DNA from: a phage
DNA: 64,000 nt
Direction: 5' to 3' (one strand)
Sequence record: PZ445428.1
Under the pieces are notes generated by a model. The model was not told where the DNA came from. It saw only the letters and a list, made by a program, of their open reading frames with translations, and made no database searches. Positions 18,277 to 64,000 of this stretch are shown here, in pieces (position 1 is the first letter of the stretch; every line of letters starts with the position of its first letter). The translations under genes and the position numbers were made by a program.

Positions 18277-19221
18277 ATGTTTACTAAAAACACTAAAGAA
18301 CTAACTTCTGAACAAAAAGTAATTCGTACTATTAAACGTTGGGGTGTTGGTGCTGTAGTTGGTCTTGGTGCTCTTATTCTGGCTCTCAATTCCTATACAG
18401 TTGTTCAGGACGGTACTGTAAAGACTCAGACATTCTTGGGTAAAGTTAACCCGAACCCTGTACTGCCAGGGTTTCACATTGTCAACCCATTCGCTTCTTT
18501 TGATACTTTTAGTACGAAAGATATTTCCATGAAACTGGATAAGCTTCAGGTTCCTAGCCAGGATAAGTTTAAGTCCACTGTTGATATTACTGTTATGTTG
18601 CAGTTCGATGGTGCTAAAGCTCCGATGAACCGTGTTAACGCAGGTACTCAGGATCAGGCGCTGAACAAGTATGTTGAAGAGAAGATGCTGTCTACTATCC
18701 GTGAATTTGGTAAGTCTGTACCGAAAGCACAGGATCTGTTCGACGCTAAGATTCAGGCACAGCTGCAAACTGCAATTCAGCAGGAAGTTGAAGAATATGC
18801 TCGTCCTTATGGTTACACCGTGAAGCAAGTATTCCTTCAGGATATTACACTTCCGCCAGTAATCATGGAACAGGTTCAGAACACAAAAGTTCGTGAAGAA
18901 CAAGTTAACGCCGCTAAAGCTGAACTAGCTCGTGTTGAACAAGAAGCACAGCAGAAAGTTAAGCAAGCTGAAGCAGATCGTTCTGCTCGTGAAAACATGG
19001 CAGTAGCTAACGAACGTGACGCAGATGCTAAACTGTACGCAGCTAAGAAAGAAGCTGAAGCTAACGCCGCACTGCAACGTACCATTACCCCTGAAATGAT
19101 TCGTTGGAAACAGCTGGAAGTTGAAATGCTTCGTGCTGAGAAATATCAGGGTGGTGTACCGCAGACTGTAGTTGGTACTGGTTATGATGGCCAGATGATC
19201 ATGGATATGCGTAACAAGTAA
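18277..19221 (+). CDS. putative SPFH/band-7 (prohibitin-like) membrane protein
   Basis: N-terminal TM helix, central SPFH-like region, long Ala/Glu/Gln coiled-coil tail. Confidence 0.5.
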   Translation: MFTKNTKELTSEQKVIRTIKRWGVGAVVGLGALILALNSYTVVQDGTVKTQTFLGKVNPNPVLPGFHIVNPFASFDTFSTKDISMKLDKLQVPSQDKFKSTVDITVMLQFDGAKAPMNRVNAGTQDQALNKYVEEKMLSTIREFGKSVPKAQDLFDAKIQAQLQTAIQQEVEEYARPYGYTVKQVFLQDITLPPVIMEQVQNTKVREEQVNAAKAELARVEQEAQQKVKQAEADRSARENMAVANERDADAKLYAAKKEAEANAALQRTITPEMIRWKQLEVEMLRAEKYQGGVPQTVVGTGYDGQMIMDMRNK

Positions 19222-19245
19222 TAGACATACGTAACATCTGAAGTA

Positions 19246-19330
19246 AGCCCGCGTTTCCTCCGAGAGCGCGGGCTTTTCTGTATTTAAGGCAAAAGAAAAG
19301 CCCCTTACCTTTCGGCAGGGGCTTTGTTTT
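19246..19330. terminator. bidirectional terminator region between convergent genes
   Basis: Two hairpins (AAGCCCGCG...CGCGGGCTT and GCCCCT...AGGGGC) flanked by T-runs on one side and A-runs on the other. Confidence 0.6.
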
Positions 19331-19539
19331 TGGTTTAGAACCATACTCTCTTGTTACAGCAACCACCCATACGGGAGACCAATCTTGACTGAAAATCTAC
19401 TCTAGGGGGCAGGATAAGAGTAGGCTTAAAGGCAAACGGATTGAACACCGGTATTTGCGTAAACATTGCTGGAGAGCAACAACGTGCTACAGGCATTGGG
19501 CAGCATGATGTAGGCTTTCTACAACACATTTAAACCTCC

Positions 19540-19968
19540 TTAGGAGTTATTCCCATTGTTTTGAGCTTTTGCAATCTGACTCTGGCAGTAGCTGTTAAAC
19601 TTCCCCATGTAAGAGACAAGAAGCTTTCCATCCTCTGTTTTAGCGAATTCTTCGAAAAGGGACAATACGGCCTGTCCCTCAGCAGAAACTTGCTGTTGTT
19701 GAGGTTGTTGAACCTGCTGCTGTTGAGGCATTTGCATCTGCTGCTGAGGCTGCATTTGTTGAGGCATTTGCGGCTGCCCGCTCATTTGCTGCATCATCTG
19801 CATAGGGTTTACACTTCCAGGATTCTGCTGGAATTGCTGTTGCATATTCTGAGCTTCTGCCAAACGCTGTTGCAACTGCTGTAGGTAAGGGTTATCCAGA
19901 CCCGGAACGGGCTGCTGGGAGCCCATTGGTTGATTAAATCCGTTGTTTACAAAACCATATTTACTCAT
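19540..19968 (-). CDS. Gln/Pro/Met-rich low-complexity protein (142 aa)
   Basis: ORF track; GGAGGAG RBS; poly-Q/QQMQ repeats. Confidence 0.5.
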   Translation of the reverse strand: MSKYGFVNNGFNQPMGSQQPVPGLDNPYLQQLQQRLAEAQNMQQQFQQNPGSVNPMQMMQQMSGQPQMPQQMQPQQQMQMPQQQQVQQPQQQQVSAEGQAVLSLFEEFAKTEDGKLLVSYMGKFNSYCQSQIAKAQNNGNNS

Positions 19969-19989
19969 AATGGGCTCCTCCCCTTAATA

Positions 19990-20976
19990 TTAAGCTGGCA
20001 GCTTAGCTTGTAGGCCAGCCAGCGTCTGAGTGATAGCACCTAGGCTAACAGCGATCTGGTTGATTACCTGACCGTTTGCACCACTACCCTGAGCGATTGC
20101 TTCGCGTAGACGACATTCGTTCAGTTCGTCCTGGATACGCGCAGTAGTTACACCAGCGATCGCAGACTGAAGTTCACAGCAGCACTCAGCAATCTGACGT
20201 TCCAGAGAGTTCTGGTTAGCACACATCTGAGCCTGAACAGCGGCGAACTGGTTGTTTGTCTGGATAGACTGAGCAAAAGAGATCTGTGCAGCATCAAACT
20301 TGTCCTGTGCACGAGCGATCTGGTTAGCAGCGAAAGCTTGATCCATCTGACGAGAAAGATCGAACTGACCCTGAATAACGTTACGAGTTTCCTGACAGAT
20401 CTGGTTGGACAGGTTAGCACCAGTACCATACACAGTAGTCAGAATCTGTTGAGTGCTAGAAGCTTGAGCAGCACCTACACCATTAACAGCGTTTAGAACA
20501 GCACCAGTACCTTGATTTGCTTCAGTACGAGTAGTGTTGATTGCAGCTAGAATACTTGCAGTATCCTGGTTGGAAAGGATAGCGTCCACAGCAGTTCCCT
20601 CAGTGGCAACACCAGCACCACGACCTAAACCACCGAAACCACCGAATCCGCCTGTTAATAGAGCACCAATCAGGATAGCTCCGAATAGACCCATACCTTC
20701 ACCACCGAAAGCACCCTGTGCAGCAGCTGGGTAACCACCCATCAGACCTGGGAAGCCGCTAGTGAATACGTTTACTGGTTCTTGCATTTTATGTTTCCTA
20801 TGTTTATGACAGCCCTCATGGTCGTCATCTTCTTCATCGTCATCATCGTGATCACGATGTTTCTTTTCGTAGGCTTTGACCTTCTCCCACTTATGTTTGT
20901 CTGATTCCTCATGACGTCTCAGTTCTGCTGCGACTTCACTTACGGTCTCAGGTTTCTTAGTTACTTCATCTGTCAT
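19990..20976 (-). CDS. hypothetical protein with His/Asp-rich N-terminal segment and Gly-rich hydrophobic core
   Basis: ORF track 19990..20985, start moved to ATG at 20976 after AGGAGG RBS. Confidence 0.55.
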   Translation of the reverse strand: MTDEVTKKPETVSEVAAELRRHEESDKHKWEKVKAYEKKHRDHDDDDEEDDDHEGCHKHRKHKMQEPVNVFTSGFPGLMGGYPAAAQGAFGGEGMGLFGAILIGALLTGGFGGFGGLGRGAGVATEGTAVDAILSNQDTASILAAINTTRTEANQGTGAVLNAVNGVGAAQASSTQQILTTVYGTGANLSNQICQETRNVIQGQFDLSRQMDQAFAANQIARAQDKFDAAQISFAQSIQTNNQFAAVQAQMCANQNSLERQIAECCCELQSAIAGVTTARIQDELNECRLREAIAQGSGANGQVINQIAVSLGAITQTLAGLQAKLPA

Positions 20977-21182
20977 TTTTGACACCTCCTAGTATATAGA
21001 AAATGTGTGTCTCTTTGATCACTCATCCATAACATATACTTTACACTACCCCAGCGAAAATGTCAAGGGGTCTTTAAAAATTGCCCCCGGATTTTTATTG
21101 GGGTAATAATTTTGGGGTCTGCCCACTCACCTGCTACCCTTAAGTGCCCTACTATTTTCCTACAAAAAGTTTAAAAATTCGA

Positions 21183-21211
21183 TTGCTTGAACGCTAAATT
21201 CTCTGTATAAT
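21183..21211 (+). promoter_or_regulatory. early promoter cassette (-35 TTGCTT, -10 TATAAT)
   Basis: Hexamers with 17-bp spacer. Confidence 0.6.
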
Positions 21212-21242
21212 ATATTTATAAATTAATGAGAAGGAAGTAAAT

Positions 21243-21707
21243 ATGAACAAGTTCAAAGGCATTCGAGTTATTCCTTGTCTTATTCCTAAAACCTTCAAAA
21301 GATTCGCTGAATGGCGTGGTGATGAAGAAGAACTTAGTCATTGCTTCCATAAATATAAAGAAATAGAGTGTGAACCACGTTTCAATCGTCCAGGTCTTTA
21401 CATGGATCGTATTAACAAAGAAGCATGGTACGAACTAGAAATGCTTGATGGTACTATTCGAGCTTTCAGCACAGAATATGAGCATCAAGAATGGGTCTGG
21501 AAGTATAAGTACTCTCACGGTGATCGTATTCTGAACAAAGGCGAATATGAAGAAATGCGCCGTATGTTCCAACTATATAACGTGCCTCTAGAGCAGCAGC
21601 CAGATGTATACAGAGCTAGCCGTGAATACTGGCATGATAAAGCAATAGGACGAGATATGGAGTTGTGTTTACTTCGTTCTTCTAAACGAAAAGCTGAGAA
21701 GGAATAA
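21243..21707 (+). CDS. hypothetical protein (154 aa)
   Basis: ORF track. Confidence 0.55.
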   Translation: MNKFKGIRVIPCLIPKTFKRFAEWRGDEEELSHCFHKYKEIECEPRFNRPGLYMDRINKEAWYELEMLDGTIRAFSTEYEHQEWVWKYKYSHGDRILNKGEYEEMRRMFQLYNVPLEQQPDVYRASREYWHDKAIGRDMELCLLRSSKRKAEKE

Positions 21708-21712
21708 AAATA

Positions 21713-22003
21713 ATGAAACACTACGCAGAACGTGAAATTGATGAATTAGACTTTGCTGGCGGGTTTTATTCCACCCATGTTAGTGCTATGACCGCAGAAG
21801 GACTTAATTCTAAGTCGGCTATTGCGGCAGAATTAGCATTTCGTGATTTTACTATTGCTGAAATGCAAGAGCATATTATGCGACTAGAGAATCAGGTGGA
21901 TGAACTCCTGAAGCACAATGAGGAACTAGGTGAAGATCTCCATGAACTCACAGAAGAACGTGATACTCTTTACATGAAGTTAGCCGGTCATGAATCTTTT
22001 TAA
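21713..22003 (+). CDS. hypothetical protein (96 aa)
   Basis: ORF track. Confidence 0.5.
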   Translation: MKHYAEREIDELDFAGGFYSTHVSAMTAEGLNSKSAIAAELAFRDFTIAEMQEHIMRLENQVDELLKHNEELGEDLHELTEERDTLYMKLAGHESF

Positions 22004-22009
22004 ATTTAT

Positions 22010-22038
22010 TTGCTAAATAACTTGAATTTCTATATAAT
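22010..22038 (+). promoter_or_regulatory. early promoter cassette (-35 TTGCTA, -10 TATAAT)
   Basis: Hexamers with 17-bp spacer. Confidence 0.6.
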
Positions 22039-22068
22039 ATACTTATAAATTTGAGAGAGGAAGCAAAT

Positions 22069-23133
22069 ATGATTAAGACTGGTCTAGTAATTGGTAAATT
22101 CGCACCATTAACTCGTGGTCATATCAACCTTATTAATACTGCGGCGACAATGTGTGAGCGCGTTATCGTTGTAGTTAGCCACGACAATCGTTGGCTGGAT
22201 AAGCAAAACTCTAGGGATCAAGAAGTCCTACAGTTGAAGAATCGTTTACGATGGCTTGAGCAGACTTATGCAGATATTGAGCATGTGGAAATCCACGATC
22301 TTATCGAAGATGATATTCCTGAGTACCCTAATGGATGGGAAGCATATACCAAGATACTCCAGGAGTGTTATGGTATGTATCCTGAAATCACTATCTTTTC
22401 TAGTGAAATTGGGTATGATGCGGAGTACAAAAAGTATCTGCCAAACTTCGGCCATTATATTGTAGACTCGGAACGCACTCGTGTACCAATCTCTGCTACT
22501 ATGATTCGTGAGAATCTGATGAAGTATTGGGAGTTCCTGCCTAGCATAGTTCGTAAAGACTATGTTCGCAAGGTAGTTGTTATCGGTACTGAAAGCTCTG
22601 GCAAGACAACTTTAACAAAGTATCTTGCGAAGTTATATAATACTTCATGGGTTGAAGAGTATGGTCGTACATACTGTGAAGTTGACTTAGTAGGCAACGA
22701 AAGCCTACTGACTAGCGACGACTACACGAAGATTGCATTTAGGCACAAAGAGCTAGAGTTTGAAGCAGAATGTACTGCAAATAAGATCATGTTTGTGGAT
22801 ACCAATGCTTTCATTACTGAGTTCTACCATAGACTCTACGAACATCGTAAGAATCCTGTGGTTACGGCTATTGCGAAAGAAGAACATTACGATTTAGTTA
22901 TTGTTCTAGCACCTACTGTGAAGTGGGTAGATGATGGTTTACGTATTAACTCAGATCGTTCTATTACTTCAGAACTATTCGAGCAGATGAAGGAGGAGTT
23001 CCCTAACCAATTCCCAGAGGGACGCACTGTTTATATCGACTCACCGGACTACAAAGTTCGTATGGACGAAGCTGTAAATGCTGTAGACTGGTTAATTCAT
23101 TATGTTGACGCGGGAGCTATCCAATATGACTAA
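22069..23133 (+). CDS. nadR: NadR-like bifunctional NMN adenylyltransferase / ribosylnicotinamide kinase
   Basis: ORF track 22051..23133, start moved to ATG 22069; N-terminal nucleotidyltransferase motif GKFAPLTRGH and C-terminal Walker A GTESSGKTT. Confidence 0.65.
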   Translation: MIKTGLVIGKFAPLTRGHINLINTAATMCERVIVVVSHDNRWLDKQNSRDQEVLQLKNRLRWLEQTYADIEHVEIHDLIEDDIPEYPNGWEAYTKILQECYGMYPEITIFSSEIGYDAEYKKYLPNFGHYIVDSERTRVPISATMIRENLMKYWEFLPSIVRKDYVRKVVVIGTESSGKTTLTKYLAKLYNTSWVEEYGRTYCEVDLVGNESLLTSDDYTKIAFRHKELEFEAECTANKIMFVDTNAFITEFYHRLYEHRKNPVVTAIAKEEHYDLVIVLAPTVKWVDDGLRINSDRSITSELFEQMKEEFPNQFPEGRTVYIDSPDYKVRMDEAVNAVDWLIHYVDAGAIQYD

Positions 23134-23803
23134 TTATCTTGTAAATGACTTTAAAAACTGGAAACCTCTGGAATATCTGTGGCTGTTCATTGCAGTGGCC
23201 TTCATTAGTTTGGCTAACTATAATGGTACAGCACTAGATTGGGCAACAGCAATCACCAACGTTGTTTGTGTTATTCTGGTTGCAAAGGGGCGTGTTTCTA
23301 ACTATGTCTGGGGTTTGGTAGGTGTTCTGACCTACGGAATTACAGCTCTAAATGCTGATCTTTATGGTAACGCAGCGCTAAACCTGTTGTACTACGTCCC
23401 TATGCAGTTCTACGGAATGTACTTGTGGCATAAAAATAAGCCAAGTAATCTGCCGGATGTTCCAACTAAAGTTCTGACAAAAGCTCAAGCTTTGCTGACT
23501 CTAGGGATTTTAGCAGTAGCAACATTAGGTTATGGTAGTTTCCTTGCTACTACGGCTGATCCATTCCCAATGTTAGACGCATTTACCGCGGTTGGCAGTG
23601 TGATTGCTATGTGGCTTATGGTTAAGCAGTATGCTGAACAGTGGCTGATCTGGATTGCCATTAACTTTGGTACTGTGTACATCTGGCTTGTAACTGCCCA
23701 ATCTACGGGTGCATCTTACGCAATCCTGGCAATGTGGCTGGTATTCTTAGGTAACTCTATTATGGGAGCCTATAAAGGCTACTTTGTAAGAGTTAACAAG
23801 TAA
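23126..23803 (+). CDS. putative PnuC-like nicotinamide riboside transporter
   Basis: Multi-TM 226-aa ORF overlapping nadR-like stop (ATGACTAA); PnuC is the usual NadR partner (inference). Confidence 0.45.
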   Translation: MTNYLVNDFKNWKPLEYLWLFIAVAFISLANYNGTALDWATAITNVVCVILVAKGRVSNYVWGLVGVLTYGITALNADLYGNAALNLLYYVPMQFYGMYLWHKNKPSNLPDVPTKVLTKAQALLTLGILAVATLGYGSFLATTADPFPMLDAFTAVGSVIAMWLMVKQYAEQWLIWIAINFGTVYIWLVTAQSTGASYAILAMWLVFLGNSIMGAYKGYFVRVNK

Positions 23804-63518: not shown

Positions 63519-64000
63519 ATGGCAAATGATGTTTTAGTACCTGATCTCATGTCTCCTGAAGGCATGGACGTAATTGAGGCTTATCTACAATGTGGTAGTG
63601 ATGTACGAATGGCCTCACGTACTCTTGGAATGTCGGAAATTGCATTCCGCGATATTATGAATCGTGGTGAGGTAAAGAATTATCTCAACGACATATTTAT
63701 GGAGAGTGGCTTCCGCAATCGTGACAAGTTATTTGGTGTACTCGATGAAGTCATCAAGCGCAAGTTGGAAGAACTCGAAGAAACTGGTATGGGATCTGAC
63801 CAGGATATCATGGATATTCTGTGGAAAGCCCATAAAATGAAGATGGAAGAAATGAAGATGATGGTAGAGCTGGAGAAAGCGAGAGCTGCTACACGTGCTC
63901 CTACTAATCAGACTAACATTCAGAACAACATTATTGCTGGCTCCGGTGATCAGAACTACATGGACTTAATTACTTCGCTAGCAACTGGAGGTAGAAAGTA
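63519..64000 (+). CDS. HTH DNA-binding protein, possibly terminase small subunit (3' end beyond window)
   Basis: AAGGAGG RBS; helix-turn-helix-like [16 protein letters not shown]; no stop before window end. Confidence 0.35.

What the first reader, a model, noticed from the sequence alone, without database searches (positions are those of the whole stretch)
19540..20976. Convergent minus-strand gene pair encoding low-complexity proteins inside the plus-strand early region
Two genes run antisense to the surrounding gene array, each with a strong RBS, separated from the upstream plus-strand genes by a bidirectional terminator. One is a poly-Gln/Pro/Met protein. The other has a His/Asp-rich metal-binding-like N-segment (HRDHDDDDEEDDDHEGCHKHRKH), a Gly-zipper hydrophobic core and a Gln/Ala-rich tail with a CCCE motif. 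The function is not obvious; the composition suggests membrane association or condensate formation.
Basis: seen in the sequence. Interest (0 to 1): 0.45.

Follow-up and report, generated by a model that had tools for sequence, protein, structure and literature searches.

The report
Dispensable T5-type membrane-rod accessory operon
These are real, conserved phage genes, the copy of the T5.077-T5.079 operon in a T5-like coliphage: a self-contained, dispensable three-gene unit of unknown function whose main protein is a membrane-anchored long helical rod from a large, uncharacterised virus-wide family marked by a Cys-Cys-Cys motif.

Summary
The window is Escherichia phage TrudiGerster (Bas27), a T5-like phage. 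Both reported minus-strand genes are real. They are under purifying selection (dN/dS about 0.1-0.2 against 25 relatives) and are orthologues of T5.077 and T5.078.

The unit has three genes, not two. A 64-aa Cys-rich gene (19335-19529, T5.079) lies between the second gene and the terminators. The unit has its own conserved sigma-70 promoter (T5 'P12'), an invariant leader and tandem terminators, so it is built like a moron (a self-contained inserted transcription unit). Published CRISPRi-ART knock-downs score all three T5 genes 'Not Fit', meaning dispensable in the laboratory.

The His/Asp tract and the poly-Gln/Pro/Met tract are the least conserved parts and behave as variable spacers. The conserved parts are a Gly-zipper hydrophobic segment and one unbroken helix of about 187 residues carrying the CCCE motif.

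A profile search places gene A in a superfamily of at least 186 clusters (PHROGs 8119, 16490, 9288; no Pfam family). Members occur in crAss-like phages, Firmicutes, Negativicutes and Treponema prophages, and a giant-virus-like contig, often in a conserved cassette beside lysis genes.

Function is unknown. My best guess, at low confidence, is an envelope-level accessory role such as superinfection exclusion. Membrane topology is unresolved. The genes are already catalogued; interest is moderate.

The parts
21038..21066 (-). Sigma-70 promoter of the operon (TTGACA, 17 nt, TAAAGT) with an upstream A/T-rich tract. Equivalent to T5 promoter 'P12'.
   Evidence: Consensus scan gives 10/12 matches. 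The -35 and -10 elements are conserved even in the ~40%-identity relatives L005 and L006. T5 annotates promoter P12 at the homologous position.
20977..21037 (-). 5' leader, about 99% invariant across T5-like phages over 21001-21060, ending in the AGGAGG ribosome-binding site.
   Evidence: Identity is 0.99 in 21001-21060 and 0.91 in 20941-21000, against 0.67-0.9 in most of the coding sequence. Alignment. The reason for the invariance is unknown.
19990..20976 (-). Gene A (328 aa; bas27_0089; T5.077 orthologue; PHROG 8119). Encodes a membrane-anchored helical rod protein.
   Evidence: ORF. dN/dS 0.12-0.26. PHROG 8119 at E 3e-192. AF2 with a 149-sequence alignment gives pLDDT 79, with helices at aa 12-44, 96-108 and 139-325.
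20791..20859 (-). His/Asp/Glu-rich tract of A (aa 40-62). A variable, disordered spacer.
   Evidence: Not conserved in distant orthologues. pLDDT is below 50 for aa 50-65.
20608..20697 (-). Gly-zipper hydrophobic segment of A (aa 94-123, 13 Gly, followed by a conserved Arg). The membrane anchor.
   Evidence: Composition. The 20641-20700 block is 96% nt-identical. Conserved across the family, with a median uncharged segment of 28 aa and Arg as the first charged residue afterwards in 34/53 members.
20002..20562 (-). Helical rod of A (aa 139-325). One uninterrupted predicted helix, about 28 nm long if straight, rich in Gln/Asn/Ala/Ser/Thr and poor in charges.
   Evidence: AF2 helix 139-325, pLDDT above 90 over most of aa 141-270. 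Over aa 129-325: 22% Q+N, 18% A, 12.7% charged; over aa 139-325: hydrophobic period 3.6.
20173..20184 (-). CCCE motif (aa 265-268). Hallmark of the superfamily (Q-x3-CCC-[ED]).
   Evidence: C265 and C266 nearly invariant, C267 invariant. 110 of 145 family representatives carry CCC.
19540..19968 (-). Gene B (142 aa; bas27_0088; T5.078; PHROG 7894). Conserved N-terminal helix (aa ~26-46), variable Gln/Pro/Met spacer (aa ~47-94, window 19687-19830), conserved C-terminal domain (aa ~95-136). No signal peptide or transmembrane segment.
   Evidence: ORF. dN/dS 0.09-0.19. PHROG 7894 at E 1.7e-69. Conservation pattern. Found only in T5-like phages.
19335..19529 (-). Gene C (64 aa; bas27_0087; T5.079). 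A small peptide with four Cys-Cys pairs and an FNPF motif, probably translated. Its core (19381-19500) is also under unexplained nucleotide-level constraint.
   Evidence: AAGGAGG site 5 nt before the ATG. An ORF of 63-69 aa starting MCC is kept directly after B in L005 and L006. 89-97% aa identity, but pS is only 0.05-0.17. 97-99% nt identity.
19291..19333 (.). Proximal terminator hairpin (GCCCCT..AGGGGC, GAAA loop) with T-runs on both strands. Ends the operon and is potentially bidirectional.
   Evidence: Read from the sequence. T5 annotates an 'efficient bidirectional rho-independent transcription terminator' at the homologous site. Sepoy annotates a terminator on each strand.
19245..19285 (+). 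Second hairpin, the terminator of the convergent plus-strand SPFH/Band_7 gene. It contains an A|GCGC sequence that matches the T5 nick consensus.
   Evidence: Terminator scan finds a 12-bp stem with a T-run. T5 places the major single-chain interruption between the terminator and T5.080.

Best explanation
Shown:
- The locus is a self-contained three-gene transcription unit: own sigma-70 promoter, invariant leader, genes A, B and C, then tandem terminators. It is inserted antisense into the early/tRNA region of a T5-like phage, which is the architecture of a moron.
- It is conserved throughout Markadamsvirinae-type T5 relatives but dispensable for T5 growth in laboratory E. coli.

Inferred from sequence and the model:
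- A is tethered to the inner membrane by a 30-residue Gly-zipper segment that probably also drives self-association.
- A short charged helix and an acidic/His spacer lie in the cytoplasm.
- A single helix of about 187 residues (~28 nm) projects away from the membrane and oligomerises into a rod. The conserved Cys-Cys-Cys cluster cross-links or caps it.
- B has no export signal. It is a cytoplasmic partner specific to the T5 clade, with two conserved ends joined by an expandable Gln-rich tether.
- C is a small Cys-rich peptide that is probably co-translated.

Most speculative step:
- The complex acts at the cell envelope as an accessory device in competition between phages, or between phage and host. 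Examples would be hindering genome entry by superinfecting phages or stabilising the infected envelope. It is not part of replication, morphogenesis or the core lysis pathway.
For: - Real genes and a conserved trio.
- Own promoter, conserved to ~40%-identity relatives, and terminators.
- Dispensable: CRISPRi-ART scores T5.077, T5.078 and T5.079 as 'Not Fit' and 'unknown function' (PMC11879866, supplementary files 8 and 16).
- Not the lysis machinery: T5-like phages have their own holin, endolysin and inner and outer spanins (PMC4342426, PMC6256483).
- Architecture: AF2 pLDDT 79 with helix 139-325. Conserved Gly-zipper and CCC motif.
- Rod composition is low in charge and rich in Q/N/A/S/T, as in extracytoplasmic coiled coils.
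- Family homology: profile search finds 186 clusters. hhalign of T5-type against prophage-type gives probability 99.3%, E 2e-20.
- In prophages the A-containing cassette lies at the prophage edge beside host genes and after the lysis genes, which is the usual position of lysogenic-conversion or exclusion genes. It is preceded by a small GerE/sigma-70-region-4 HTH gene that may be its own regulator.
- In T5 the neighbouring gene T5.076 is an anti-retron factor, so this is an accessory neighbourhood.
Against: - No experiment or homologue of known function links any of the three proteins to exclusion or any other activity. Pfam, NCBIfam, PADLOC, PDB sequence and fold searches are all empty.
- Topology is unresolved. 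Family-wide, the N-tails are short, acidic and free of K/R, and an Arg follows the hydrophobic segment. That favours a cytoplasmic rod or a re-entrant hairpin.
- B and C have no export signals.
- TM-less homologues exist, including one on a giant-virus-like contig.
- T5-like phages already exclude via Llp (PMC4342426).
- The promoter class (early or late) was not determined.
- 'Not Fit' is also what a decaying or redundant gene would give, although purifying selection argues against decay.
Confidence: 0.3

Rival explanations
1. Lysis-associated accessory. The A family modulates or assists envelope disruption, for example as a holin regulator, or as a fusogen- or spanin-like envelope disruptor. 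The T5 operon would be a relocated copy that tunes lysis timing.
For: - A homologues lie next to holin-like and endolysin genes in many unrelated phages and prophages: L034 (two-TM holin-like gene directly upstream), L039 and L038 of crAss-like Suoliviridae (holin, endolysin, LysB-like), and L047, L048, L051, L054 and L062 (GH25, Amidase_2, Phage_lysozyme, Glucosaminidase).
- The architecture, a hydrophobic Gly-rich segment followed by a long helix, recalls i-spanins and class I fusion proteins. There is a marginal match of GLFGAI to the HA2 fusion peptide (E 0.6).
Against: - In T5-likes the operon is far from the lysis cassette, and T5 already has holin, endolysin and both spanins.
- Knock-down has no fitness effect.
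- In Clostridium phage XP41-N3 and Bacteroides phage C3_41T2LP the gene sits among early or recombination genes.
- Adjacency to lysis genes is expected for anything placed at the end of a prophage late operon.
- The family occurs in phages of both monoderm and diderm hosts, so it cannot be a spanin as such.
Confidence: 0.2
2. Cytoplasmic, membrane-tethered scaffold. The Gly-rich segment is a monotopic or re-entrant anchor, or an N-out anchor in short-N-tail relatives. The rod, B and C are all cytoplasmic. The CCC motif of A and the CC pairs of C hold reduced thiols or a metal. The assembly would organise or sequester something at the inner face of the membrane, such as phage DNA, a host factor or a defence protein. 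This would be analogous to the membrane-anchored coiled-coil protein p16.7 of phi29 (analogy from memory).
For: - Positive-inside statistics across 53 members: K/R-free acidic N-tails and Arg after the segment in 34/53.
- The uncharged segment has a median of 28 aa, and AF2 models only a 13-residue helix there.
- B and C lack signal peptides.
- TM-less homologues exist, including one on a giant-virus-like contig.
- The CCC motif is conserved in phages of strict anaerobes, where periplasmic disulfide formation is doubtful.
- The T5 neighbour is an anti-defence gene.
Against: - The rod has only 12.7% charged residues and 22% Gln+Asn, which is atypical for cytoplasmic coiled coils.
- No DNA-binding or enzyme domain is detectable.
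- No PADLOC hit.
- The metal-like His tract is not conserved.
Confidence: 0.2
3. Virion or fibre component. A would be a trimeric coiled-coil fibre shaft, as suggested by the crAss-phage annotations 'outer capsid protein/viral fiber' and 'spike protein'.
For: - Database labels on crAss-like homologues.
- Fibre-like composition of the rod.
- In other phages the next gene encodes a beta-rich protein with a weak BclA_C (TNF-like knob) match, and the cassette can lie among tail genes.
Against: - Those labels are remote-similarity guesses.
- In T5-likes the operon lies in the early/tRNA region with a full -35/-10 promoter.
- A carries a membrane-type hydrophobic segment.
- The T5 version lacks the Pro/Tyr/Gly/Cys tail and the beta-rich partner.
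- Knock-down is neutral.
- To my knowledge T5 virion proteomics does not list T5.077-079 (from memory, not checked here).
Confidence: 0.05
4. Gene C is not a protein-coding gene but a conserved RNA or DNA element (part of a 3' UTR, or a signal near the T5 nick) that happens to be open.
For: - Synonymous divergence in C is 3-10 times lower than in A and B.
- The core 19381-19500 is 97-99% nt-identical.
- dN/dS in C is higher than in A and B (0.17-0.54).
Against: - C has a strong ribosome-binding site and is tightly spaced after B.
- An ORF of 63-69 codons starting MCC, with an internal CC and an NPF-like motif, persists in L005 and L006 although the sequence has diverged to about 30% identity.
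- No Rfam or tRNA hit.
- Folding is not unusual (z -1.6) and there is no pairing with the leader.
Confidence: 0.15

Closest known systems
Phage T5 genes T5.077, T5.078 and T5.079 (the promoter P12 unit, AY543070 38064-39671)
   Same: Orthologues: A is 86% identical by BLASTP over the ORFs (76.5% by tblastn), B 83% and C 91%. Same order, same antisense placement next to the SPFH gene, same promoter and terminator.
   Different: Nothing material. The T5 genes are themselves 'hypothetical' and 'unknown function', and 'Not Fit' in CRISPRi-ART. The T5 upstream neighbour (T5.076, anti-retron) is replaced in TrudiGerster by two other small genes.
PHROG families 8119, 16490 and 9288 (all 'unknown function'), referred to here as the Gly-zipper/CCC-rod superfamily
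   Same: Shared architecture and the Q-x3-CCC-[ED] motif. The profile search finds 186 clusters. There are cross-hits between the PHROGs. hhalign gives probability 99.3%.
   Different: T5-type A has a long charged N-terminal extension and two copies of the motif region. It lacks the C-terminal 'PxPAY..NPY' plus Gly/Tyr/Cys tail of the prophage and crAss types. Its partners B and C have no supported homologues in the other cassettes.
i-spanins (lambda Rz type)
   Same: A single membrane segment followed by a long helical domain with conserved cysteines. The predicted length is enough to cross the periplasm.
   Different: No o-spanin lipoprotein partner. Not in the lysis cassette. T5-likes have their own spanins. 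A has a ~90-aa cytoplasmic extension. The family also occurs in phages of monoderm hosts. No sequence similarity.
Superinfection-exclusion membrane proteins encoded by morons or accessory genes (HK97 gp15, T4 Imm/Sp, P22 SieA; recalled from the literature)
   Same: A small autonomous unit with its own promoter and terminator, a membrane protein, dispensable in the laboratory, and located at the prophage edge in relatives.
   Different: No homology. No functional test here. Those proteins are much smaller and lack a ~28-nm rod.
Class I viral fusion glycoproteins (influenza HA2, coronavirus S2), the source of the 'spike protein/glycoprotein' labels on crAss-like homologues
   Same: A Gly-rich hydrophobic peptide (GLFGAI...) followed by a long Gln/Asn/Ala-rich helix.
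   Different: The match is not significant (E 0.6). There is no fold match, no signal peptide, no HR2 or C-terminal anchor, and no cleavage site.

Membership tests
T5.077-T5.079 orthologous operon (PHROGs 8119 and 7894) | Full-length sequence match to the family profiles | tested here: met
   PHROG 8119 at E 3e-192 over aa 1-328. PHROG 7894 at E 1.7e-69 over aa 1-142. 223 phage records match by tblastn.
T5.077-T5.079 orthologous operon (PHROGs 8119 and 7894) | Same gene order A-B-C, antisense to the flanking genes, with promoter P12 and a bidirectional terminator | tested here: met
Gly-zipper/CCC-rod superfamily (PHROGs 8119, 16490, 9288) | Gly-rich uncharged segment of about 28 aa followed by a helical domain with Q-x3-CCC-[ED] | tested here: met
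   aa 94-123 and CCCE at aa 265-268. 110/145 representatives carry CCC. hhalign probability 99.3%.
Moron (autonomous accessory transcription unit) | Own promoter and own terminator flanking the genes | tested here: met
   TTGACA-17-TAAAGT, conserved in distant relatives. Tandem terminator hairpins. T5 annotation. Activity in vivo was not measured here.
Moron (autonomous accessory transcription unit) | Dispensable for lytic growth | tested here: met
   Published CRISPRi-ART on T5: all three genes 'Not Fit'. This was measured on the T5 orthologues, not on TrudiGerster.
Moron (autonomous accessory transcription unit) | Base composition different from the neighbours, or patchy distribution | tested here: inconclusive
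   GC is 0.47-0.50 against 0.36-0.41 on the promoter-side flank (21000-23400), but the SPFH gene on the other side is also about 0.45, and a Gly/Ala/Gln-rich protein biases GC. The operon was found in Escherichia, Salmonella and Klebsiella T5-likes and a few metagenomic relatives.
Two-component spanin (i-spanin) | Cognate o-spanin lipoprotein gene (signal peptide plus lipobox Cys) embedded, overlapping or adjacent | tested here: not met
   B and C have no hydrophobic signal sequence or lipobox (translations; alignments).
Two-component spanin (i-spanin) | Located in the lysis cassette and needed for lysis | tested here: not met
   The flanking genes carry no holin, endolysin or spanin annotation: Band_7/SPFH and a tRNA on one side, hypothetical genes and nicotinamide-nucleotide genes on the other. 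A 'putative cell wall hydrolase' gene (bas27_0077) lies about 3.4 kb away and was not examined. T5-likes have separate spanins. Knock-down is neutral.
Holin | Small membrane protein, usually with at least one full transmembrane domain and a charged C-terminus, encoded next to the endolysin | tested here: not met
   A is 328 aa with a ~190-aa helical C-terminal domain, and its flanking genes are not annotated as endolysin. A 'putative cell wall hydrolase' gene lies about 3.4 kb away and was not examined.
Class I viral fusion glycoprotein ('spike protein' label of crAss homologues) | Significant sequence or fold similarity to a solved fusion protein; signal peptide; HR1/HR2; C-terminal anchor | tested here: not met
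   PDB profile search best hit is HA2 at E 0.6. Foldseek against the PDB finds nothing. No N-terminal signal peptide or second anchor is present in the sequence.
   The His/Asp tract is variable and is absent from orthologues P0020-P0028. Metal binding by the CCC motif was not testable here.
Known anti-phage defence or anti-defence protein families | Match to a PADLOC model | tested here: not met
   No hit for A, B, C or three distant A homologues.

The most novel reading that the evidence does not exclude
Gene A would be the coliphage representative of an unrecognised superfamily of membrane-tethered, Cys-Cys-Cys-marked alpha-helical rods about 28 nm long. The family spans tailed phages of at least five bacterial phyla and reaches giant viruses.

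In most members it lies in a conserved cassette of 5-6 genes, all of unknown function: a GerE-like HTH gene, a Gln/Pro-rich beta-domain protein, a small helical protein, the rod, a Cys-rich beta-protein, and DUF7841.

The cassette would then constitute a new kind of phage accessory envelope machine, for example for exclusion, lysis timing or cell-surface remodelling. T5 and the BASEL phages would be a tractable genetic system for working out what it does.
Probability: 0.3. Interest if true: 0.7.

Novelty: already known. Interest (0 to 1): 0.38.

Why it matters
The genes themselves are catalogued. They are annotated as hypothetical proteins in TrudiGerster, have been annotated in T5 together with their promoter and terminator, and were included in a genome-wide knock-down screen. 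As a discovery the finding is therefore ordinary.

What is worth carrying forward is the context. T5.077 turns out to be the model-phage member of a large, uncharacterised family with a striking CCC hallmark. That family is abundant in human-gut phages (crAss-like phages and prophages of Negativicutes and Clostridia) and is usually embedded in a conserved cassette of unknown function.

Because the T5 and BASEL versions are dispensable and genetically tractable in E. coli K-12, they give a direct way to test what this piece of phage 'dark matter' does. The operon also contains two unusually invariant nucleotide blocks, the leader and the core of gene C, which may mark an unknown regulatory or DNA-level signal.

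Tried and rejected
- **Family libraries.** Pfam, NCBIfam and PADLOC scans of A, B and C gave only sub-threshold low-complexity hits. The GenBank label 'cAMP-dependent protein kinase catalytic subunit' on some B orthologues has no support here and is probably a low-complexity artefact.
- **Solved structures.** A PDB profile search found only HA2 at E 0.6. Foldseek of the good AF2 model found nothing. A single long helix is not searchable by fold.
- **First AF2 run.** With 30 close sequences the model was poor, pLDDT 48.6.
- **Spanin and holin ideas.** Both rejected.
- **B homologues elsewhere.** An HMM search over all fetched loci found no B homologue near distant A homologues. hhalign against the compositionally similar 'NPM-rich' small proteins gave probability 13.7%.
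- **C as a detached N-terminus of the downstream beta-rich proteins.** hhalign gave probability 0.1%. The FNPF/NPY motif resemblance, and the idea that C is the detached Cys-rich tail of ancestral A, remain untested leads.
- **RNA explanations for the invariant C core and leader.** No Rfam or tRNA hit. Folding z-scores were -3.0 with the terminator and -1.6 without it. There is no leader-core complementarity.
- **Locus scans.** The viral-contig scan with the T5-type alignment returned only T5-likes. The first genome contigs attempt failed for lack of a conserved stretch.
- **Literature.** No full-text hit for T5.077, T5.078 or T5.079. HIDEN-SEQ does not cover T5-like phages.
- **Names of distant members.** The cluster look-up of ten distant A relatives found only metagenome and sequencing-run assemblies (Logan, ENA), none with a name.
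Full report
**Identity of the window.** The region is 100% identical to Escherichia phage TrudiGerster (Bas27, MZ501108; Demerecviridae, Epseptimavirus). It is about 90% identical to many Salmonella and Escherichia T5-like phages. In TrudiGerster the two ORFs are bas27_0089 and bas27_0088, both annotated 'hypothetical protein'. In T5 the orthologues are T5.077 and T5.078. They are followed by a third small CDS (T5.079), preceded by an annotated promoter 'P12', and followed by an annotated 'efficient bidirectional rho-independent transcription terminator'.

**Checking the observation.**
- Gene A is 19990-20976 (minus strand, ATG, 328 aa). Gene B is 19540-19968 (minus strand, 142 aa). Both are there, with strong ribosome-binding sites.
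- I built codon alignments against 25 distinct T5-like sequences. A has dN/dS of 0.12-0.26 and B has 0.09-0.19, with variation concentrated at third codon positions. These are genuine genes under purifying selection.
In two metagenomic T5-like genomes whose A proteins are only about 40% identical (L005, L006), the frames, the order and the antisense placement are all kept.
C is 19335-19529, 64 aa, sequence MCCRKPTSCCPMPVARCC...GGCC. It has its own AAGGAGG site and lies between B and the terminators. Its homologues in L005 and L006 are 63-69 aa, start with MCC directly after B, and are only about 30% identical. That argues for translation.

**The transcription unit.**
- A TTGACA-17-TAAAGT promoter lies at 21066-21038 on the minus strand. 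Its -35 and -10 elements and an A/T-rich upstream tract are conserved even in L005 and L006.
- The leader from the -10 element to the ribosome-binding site is about 99% invariant among T5-likes.
- Two hairpins follow gene C. The proximal one (19300-19322) has T-runs on both strands. The distal one (19245-19275) terminates the convergent Band_7/SPFH gene.
- The unit is therefore a complete promoter-genes-terminator module inserted antisense into the early/tRNA region, which is the architecture of a moron.
- Klimuk et al. [quoted passage not shown] This promoter has ATATG there. I did not determine its temporal class.

**Is it needed?** The CRISPRi-ART screen of T5 (PMC11879866, supplementary files 8 and 16) lists T5.077, T5.078 and T5.079 as 'unknown function' and 'Not Fit'. 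Knock-down does not reduce T5 fitness on laboratory E. coli. T5.076, the T5 neighbour, is listed there as an anti-retron factor. Together with the strong purifying selection, this makes the operon a conditionally useful accessory module.

**Anatomy of the proteins.**
- Alignment of A with orthologues down to 35% identity shows which parts are conserved: a short N-terminal helix (AAEL..HE.SDK), the KMQEPVNVF motif, the Gly-zipper segment (GMG.FGGILIGALL.GG.GGFG.GRG) and the C-terminal two-thirds, including CCCE and the NGQVINQIAVSLGAITQTLAALQAK end.
It is a spacer, not a conserved metal site.
- AlphaFold2 with only the 30 close sequences gave a poor model, pLDDT 48.6. With a 149-sequence family alignment it gave pLDDT 79. 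That model has a helix at aa 12-44, disorder at aa 45-95, a short helix at aa 96-108, and one unbroken helix from aa 139 to 325, with pLDDT above 90 over most of aa 141-270. If straight, this is about 28 nm long.
- Over aa 129-325 the rod is 22% Gln+Asn, 18% Ala and only 12.7% charged. Over aa 139-325 its hydrophobic periodicity is 3.6 rather than a clean 3.5.
- In B, most of the 38 invariant columns lie in an N-terminal helix (NPYLQQLQQRLAEAQ) and a C-terminal domain of about 40 aa (EGQAVLALFEEFAKTEDGKQLVSYMGKFNSFCQS). The Gln/Pro/Met tract between them varies in length and nearly disappears in one orthologue. B has no signal peptide or transmembrane segment.

**The wider family.**
- Pfam, NCBIfam, PADLOC and the PDB give nothing. 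PHROGs places A and B in families 8119 and 7894, both of unknown function.
- A profile search over 1.8 billion representative proteins found 186 clusters at E <= 0.001. 110 of the 145 representatives examined carry a CCC triplet, typically as Q-x3-CCC-[ED] about 75 residues after a Gly-rich uncharged segment of about 28 aa.
- These proteins fall in PHROGs 16490 and 9288 as well as 8119. No Pfam family covers them.
- hhalign between the T5-type alignment and a prophage-type alignment gives probability 99.3%, E 2e-20.
- Members occur in:
  - crAss-like Suoliviridae, where they carry the unsupported labels 'spike protein/glycoprotein' or 'outer capsid protein/viral fiber';
  - a Bacteroides phage and a Clostridium perfringens phage;
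  - a phi29-like contig;
  - prophages of Dialister, Phascolarctobacterium, Megasphaera, Clostridia, Gastranaerophilales and Treponema;
  - a contig with an mRNA-capping enzyme, a Pox_A32-like ATPase and a kinase-cyclin gene, which is giant-virus-like; this version has no transmembrane segment.

**A conserved cassette outside the T5 group.** The A homologue there lies in a recurring cassette, in this order:
1. a GerE/sigma-70-region-4 HTH gene;
2. a protein of about 150 aa with a Gln/Pro/Tyr-rich N-terminus (phrog_21718);
3. a helical protein of about 75 aa;
4. the rod;
5. a beta-rich protein of about 115-145 aa, often with a Cys-rich N-terminus and in one locus (L036) a weak BclA_C match;
6. 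DUF7841.

Every member is of unknown function. The cassette often lies beside holin and endolysin genes. In three prophages it lies at the prophage edge next to host genes such as lepB. T5-type B and C have no supported homologues in these cassettes.

**What it most likely does.**
- Shown: this is an autonomous, conserved, dispensable three-gene unit. Its main product is a membrane-anchored protein with a very long helix and a conserved Cys cluster.
- Inferred: the Gly-zipper both anchors and oligomerises A. The rod forms a homo-oligomeric coiled coil stapled or capped at the CCC motif. B is a cytoplasmic partner specific to the T5 clade. C is a small Cys-rich co-factor.
- Committed, at about 0.3: an accessory role at the cell envelope in competition between phages or between phage and host, of the superinfection-exclusion or envelope-protection type. 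This rests on the moron architecture, the dispensability, the membrane anchoring, the prophage-edge position of relatives, and the accessory neighbourhood.
- The main rivals are a lysis-associated role, favoured by the frequent adjacency to lysis genes, and a cytoplasmic membrane-tethered scaffold.
- Topology is undecided. The long charged N-terminus of T5-type A and the charge-poor rod favour N-in/C-out. The family-wide charge pattern is K/R-free acidic N-tails with Arg after the segment in 34 of 53 members. That pattern, the TM-less homologues, and the lack of export signals on B and C favour a cytoplasmic rod or a re-entrant anchor.

**Comparison with known systems.**
- It is not a spanin. 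There is no lipoprotein partner, it is outside the lysis cassette, T5-likes have their own spanins, and the family occurs in phages of monoderm hosts.
- It is not a holin.
- It is not demonstrably a fusion glycoprotein. The best hit is HA2 at E 0.6, and there is no fold match.
- It most resembles, in logic only, membrane exclusion proteins encoded by morons.

**Unexplained.** The core of gene C (19381-19500) is 97-99% nt-identical across phages whose A and B genes differ at 35-59% of synonymous sites. The pS of C is only 0.05-0.17. I found no Rfam or tRNA match, no unusual fold, and no pairing with the equally invariant leader.

**Verdict.** Interest is moderate, and comes mainly from the family and cassette context.

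Noticed in passing
It encodes a 64-aa peptide with four Cys-Cys pairs (T5.079 orthologue). Its core, 19381-19500, is 97-99% nt-identical across T5-like phages and has 3-10 times fewer synonymous changes than genes A and B. This points to an extra constraint at the nucleotide level.
   Followed up: partly
window 20977-21060 (minus strand): The 5' leader of the operon, from the -10 element to the ribosome-binding site, is about 99% invariant among T5-likes, more conserved than most of the coding sequence. It may be a regulatory element. I found no complementarity to the gene C core.
   Followed up: partly
window 20976-20985: GenBank annotates bas27_0089 with a GTG start at 20985, which lies inside the AGGAGG Shine-Dalgarno sequence. 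The ATG at 20976, as in T5.077, is the more plausible start.
   Followed up: yes
window 19199-19366 (minus strand): The annotated 55-aa CDS bas27_0086 runs across both terminator hairpins and overlaps the end of the SPFH gene. It is probably a spurious call.
   Followed up: no
window 19262-19270: The distal terminator hairpin contains GA|GCGC|G, which matches the consensus quoted in the T5 record for its single-strand interruptions. T5 places its 'major' nick between the terminator and T5.080 at the homologous spot.
   Followed up: no
window 18277-19221 (plus strand): The gene convergent with the operon encodes a single-TM SPFH/Band_7 protein (Pfam E 4e-19; T5.080 orthologue). The pairing with the operon is kept in Markadamsvirinae but not in the distant relatives L005 and L006.
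   Followed up: partly
L046-L048, L051, L054, L062, L038, L039, L034, L036, L040, L043 (loci around A homologues): A conserved cassette of 5-6 genes, all of unknown function, in gut phages and prophages: a GerE/sigma-70-region-4 HTH gene, a phrog_21718 protein, a small helical protein, the CCC rod, a Cys-rich beta-protein (weak BclA_C match in one locus, L036) and DUF7841. It usually lies next to holin and endolysin genes or at the prophage edge.
   Followed up: partly
L044 9001-9534: A version of the CCC domain without a transmembrane segment (…QNALQRQLAECCCTLKQEI…DEL.E.R, close to the T5-type motif). It lies on a contig with an mRNA-capping enzyme, a Pox_A32-like ATPase, a kinase-cyclin gene and XPG, which is apparently a giant virus.
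   Followed up: no
gene A aa 192-201 and aa 264-273 (window 20374-20403 and 20158-20187): hhalign aligns the CCC motif of the prophage-type proteins with NQICQETRNV of T5-type A, not with its CCCE. T5-type A therefore seems to hold two copies of the motif region, one of them degenerate. It also ends (…LQAKLPA) exactly where the other types continue with a Pro/Tyr/Gly/Cys-rich tail.
   Followed up: no
GenBank records of relatives (e.g. Sepoy_121, ESCO40, STWB21): Several B orthologues are annotated 'cAMP-dependent protein kinase catalytic subunit'. The Pfam scan of the TrudiGerster B orthologue found no kinase domain. The label is probably a low-complexity (poly-Gln) artefact that has spread between records.
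   Followed up: yes
window coordinates versus MZ501108: The offset found (window 19300 = record 69961) would put window position 64000 beyond the 114,179-bp end of the record. The window may therefore come from a differently permuted or longer assembly, possibly including the terminal repeat.
   Followed up: no
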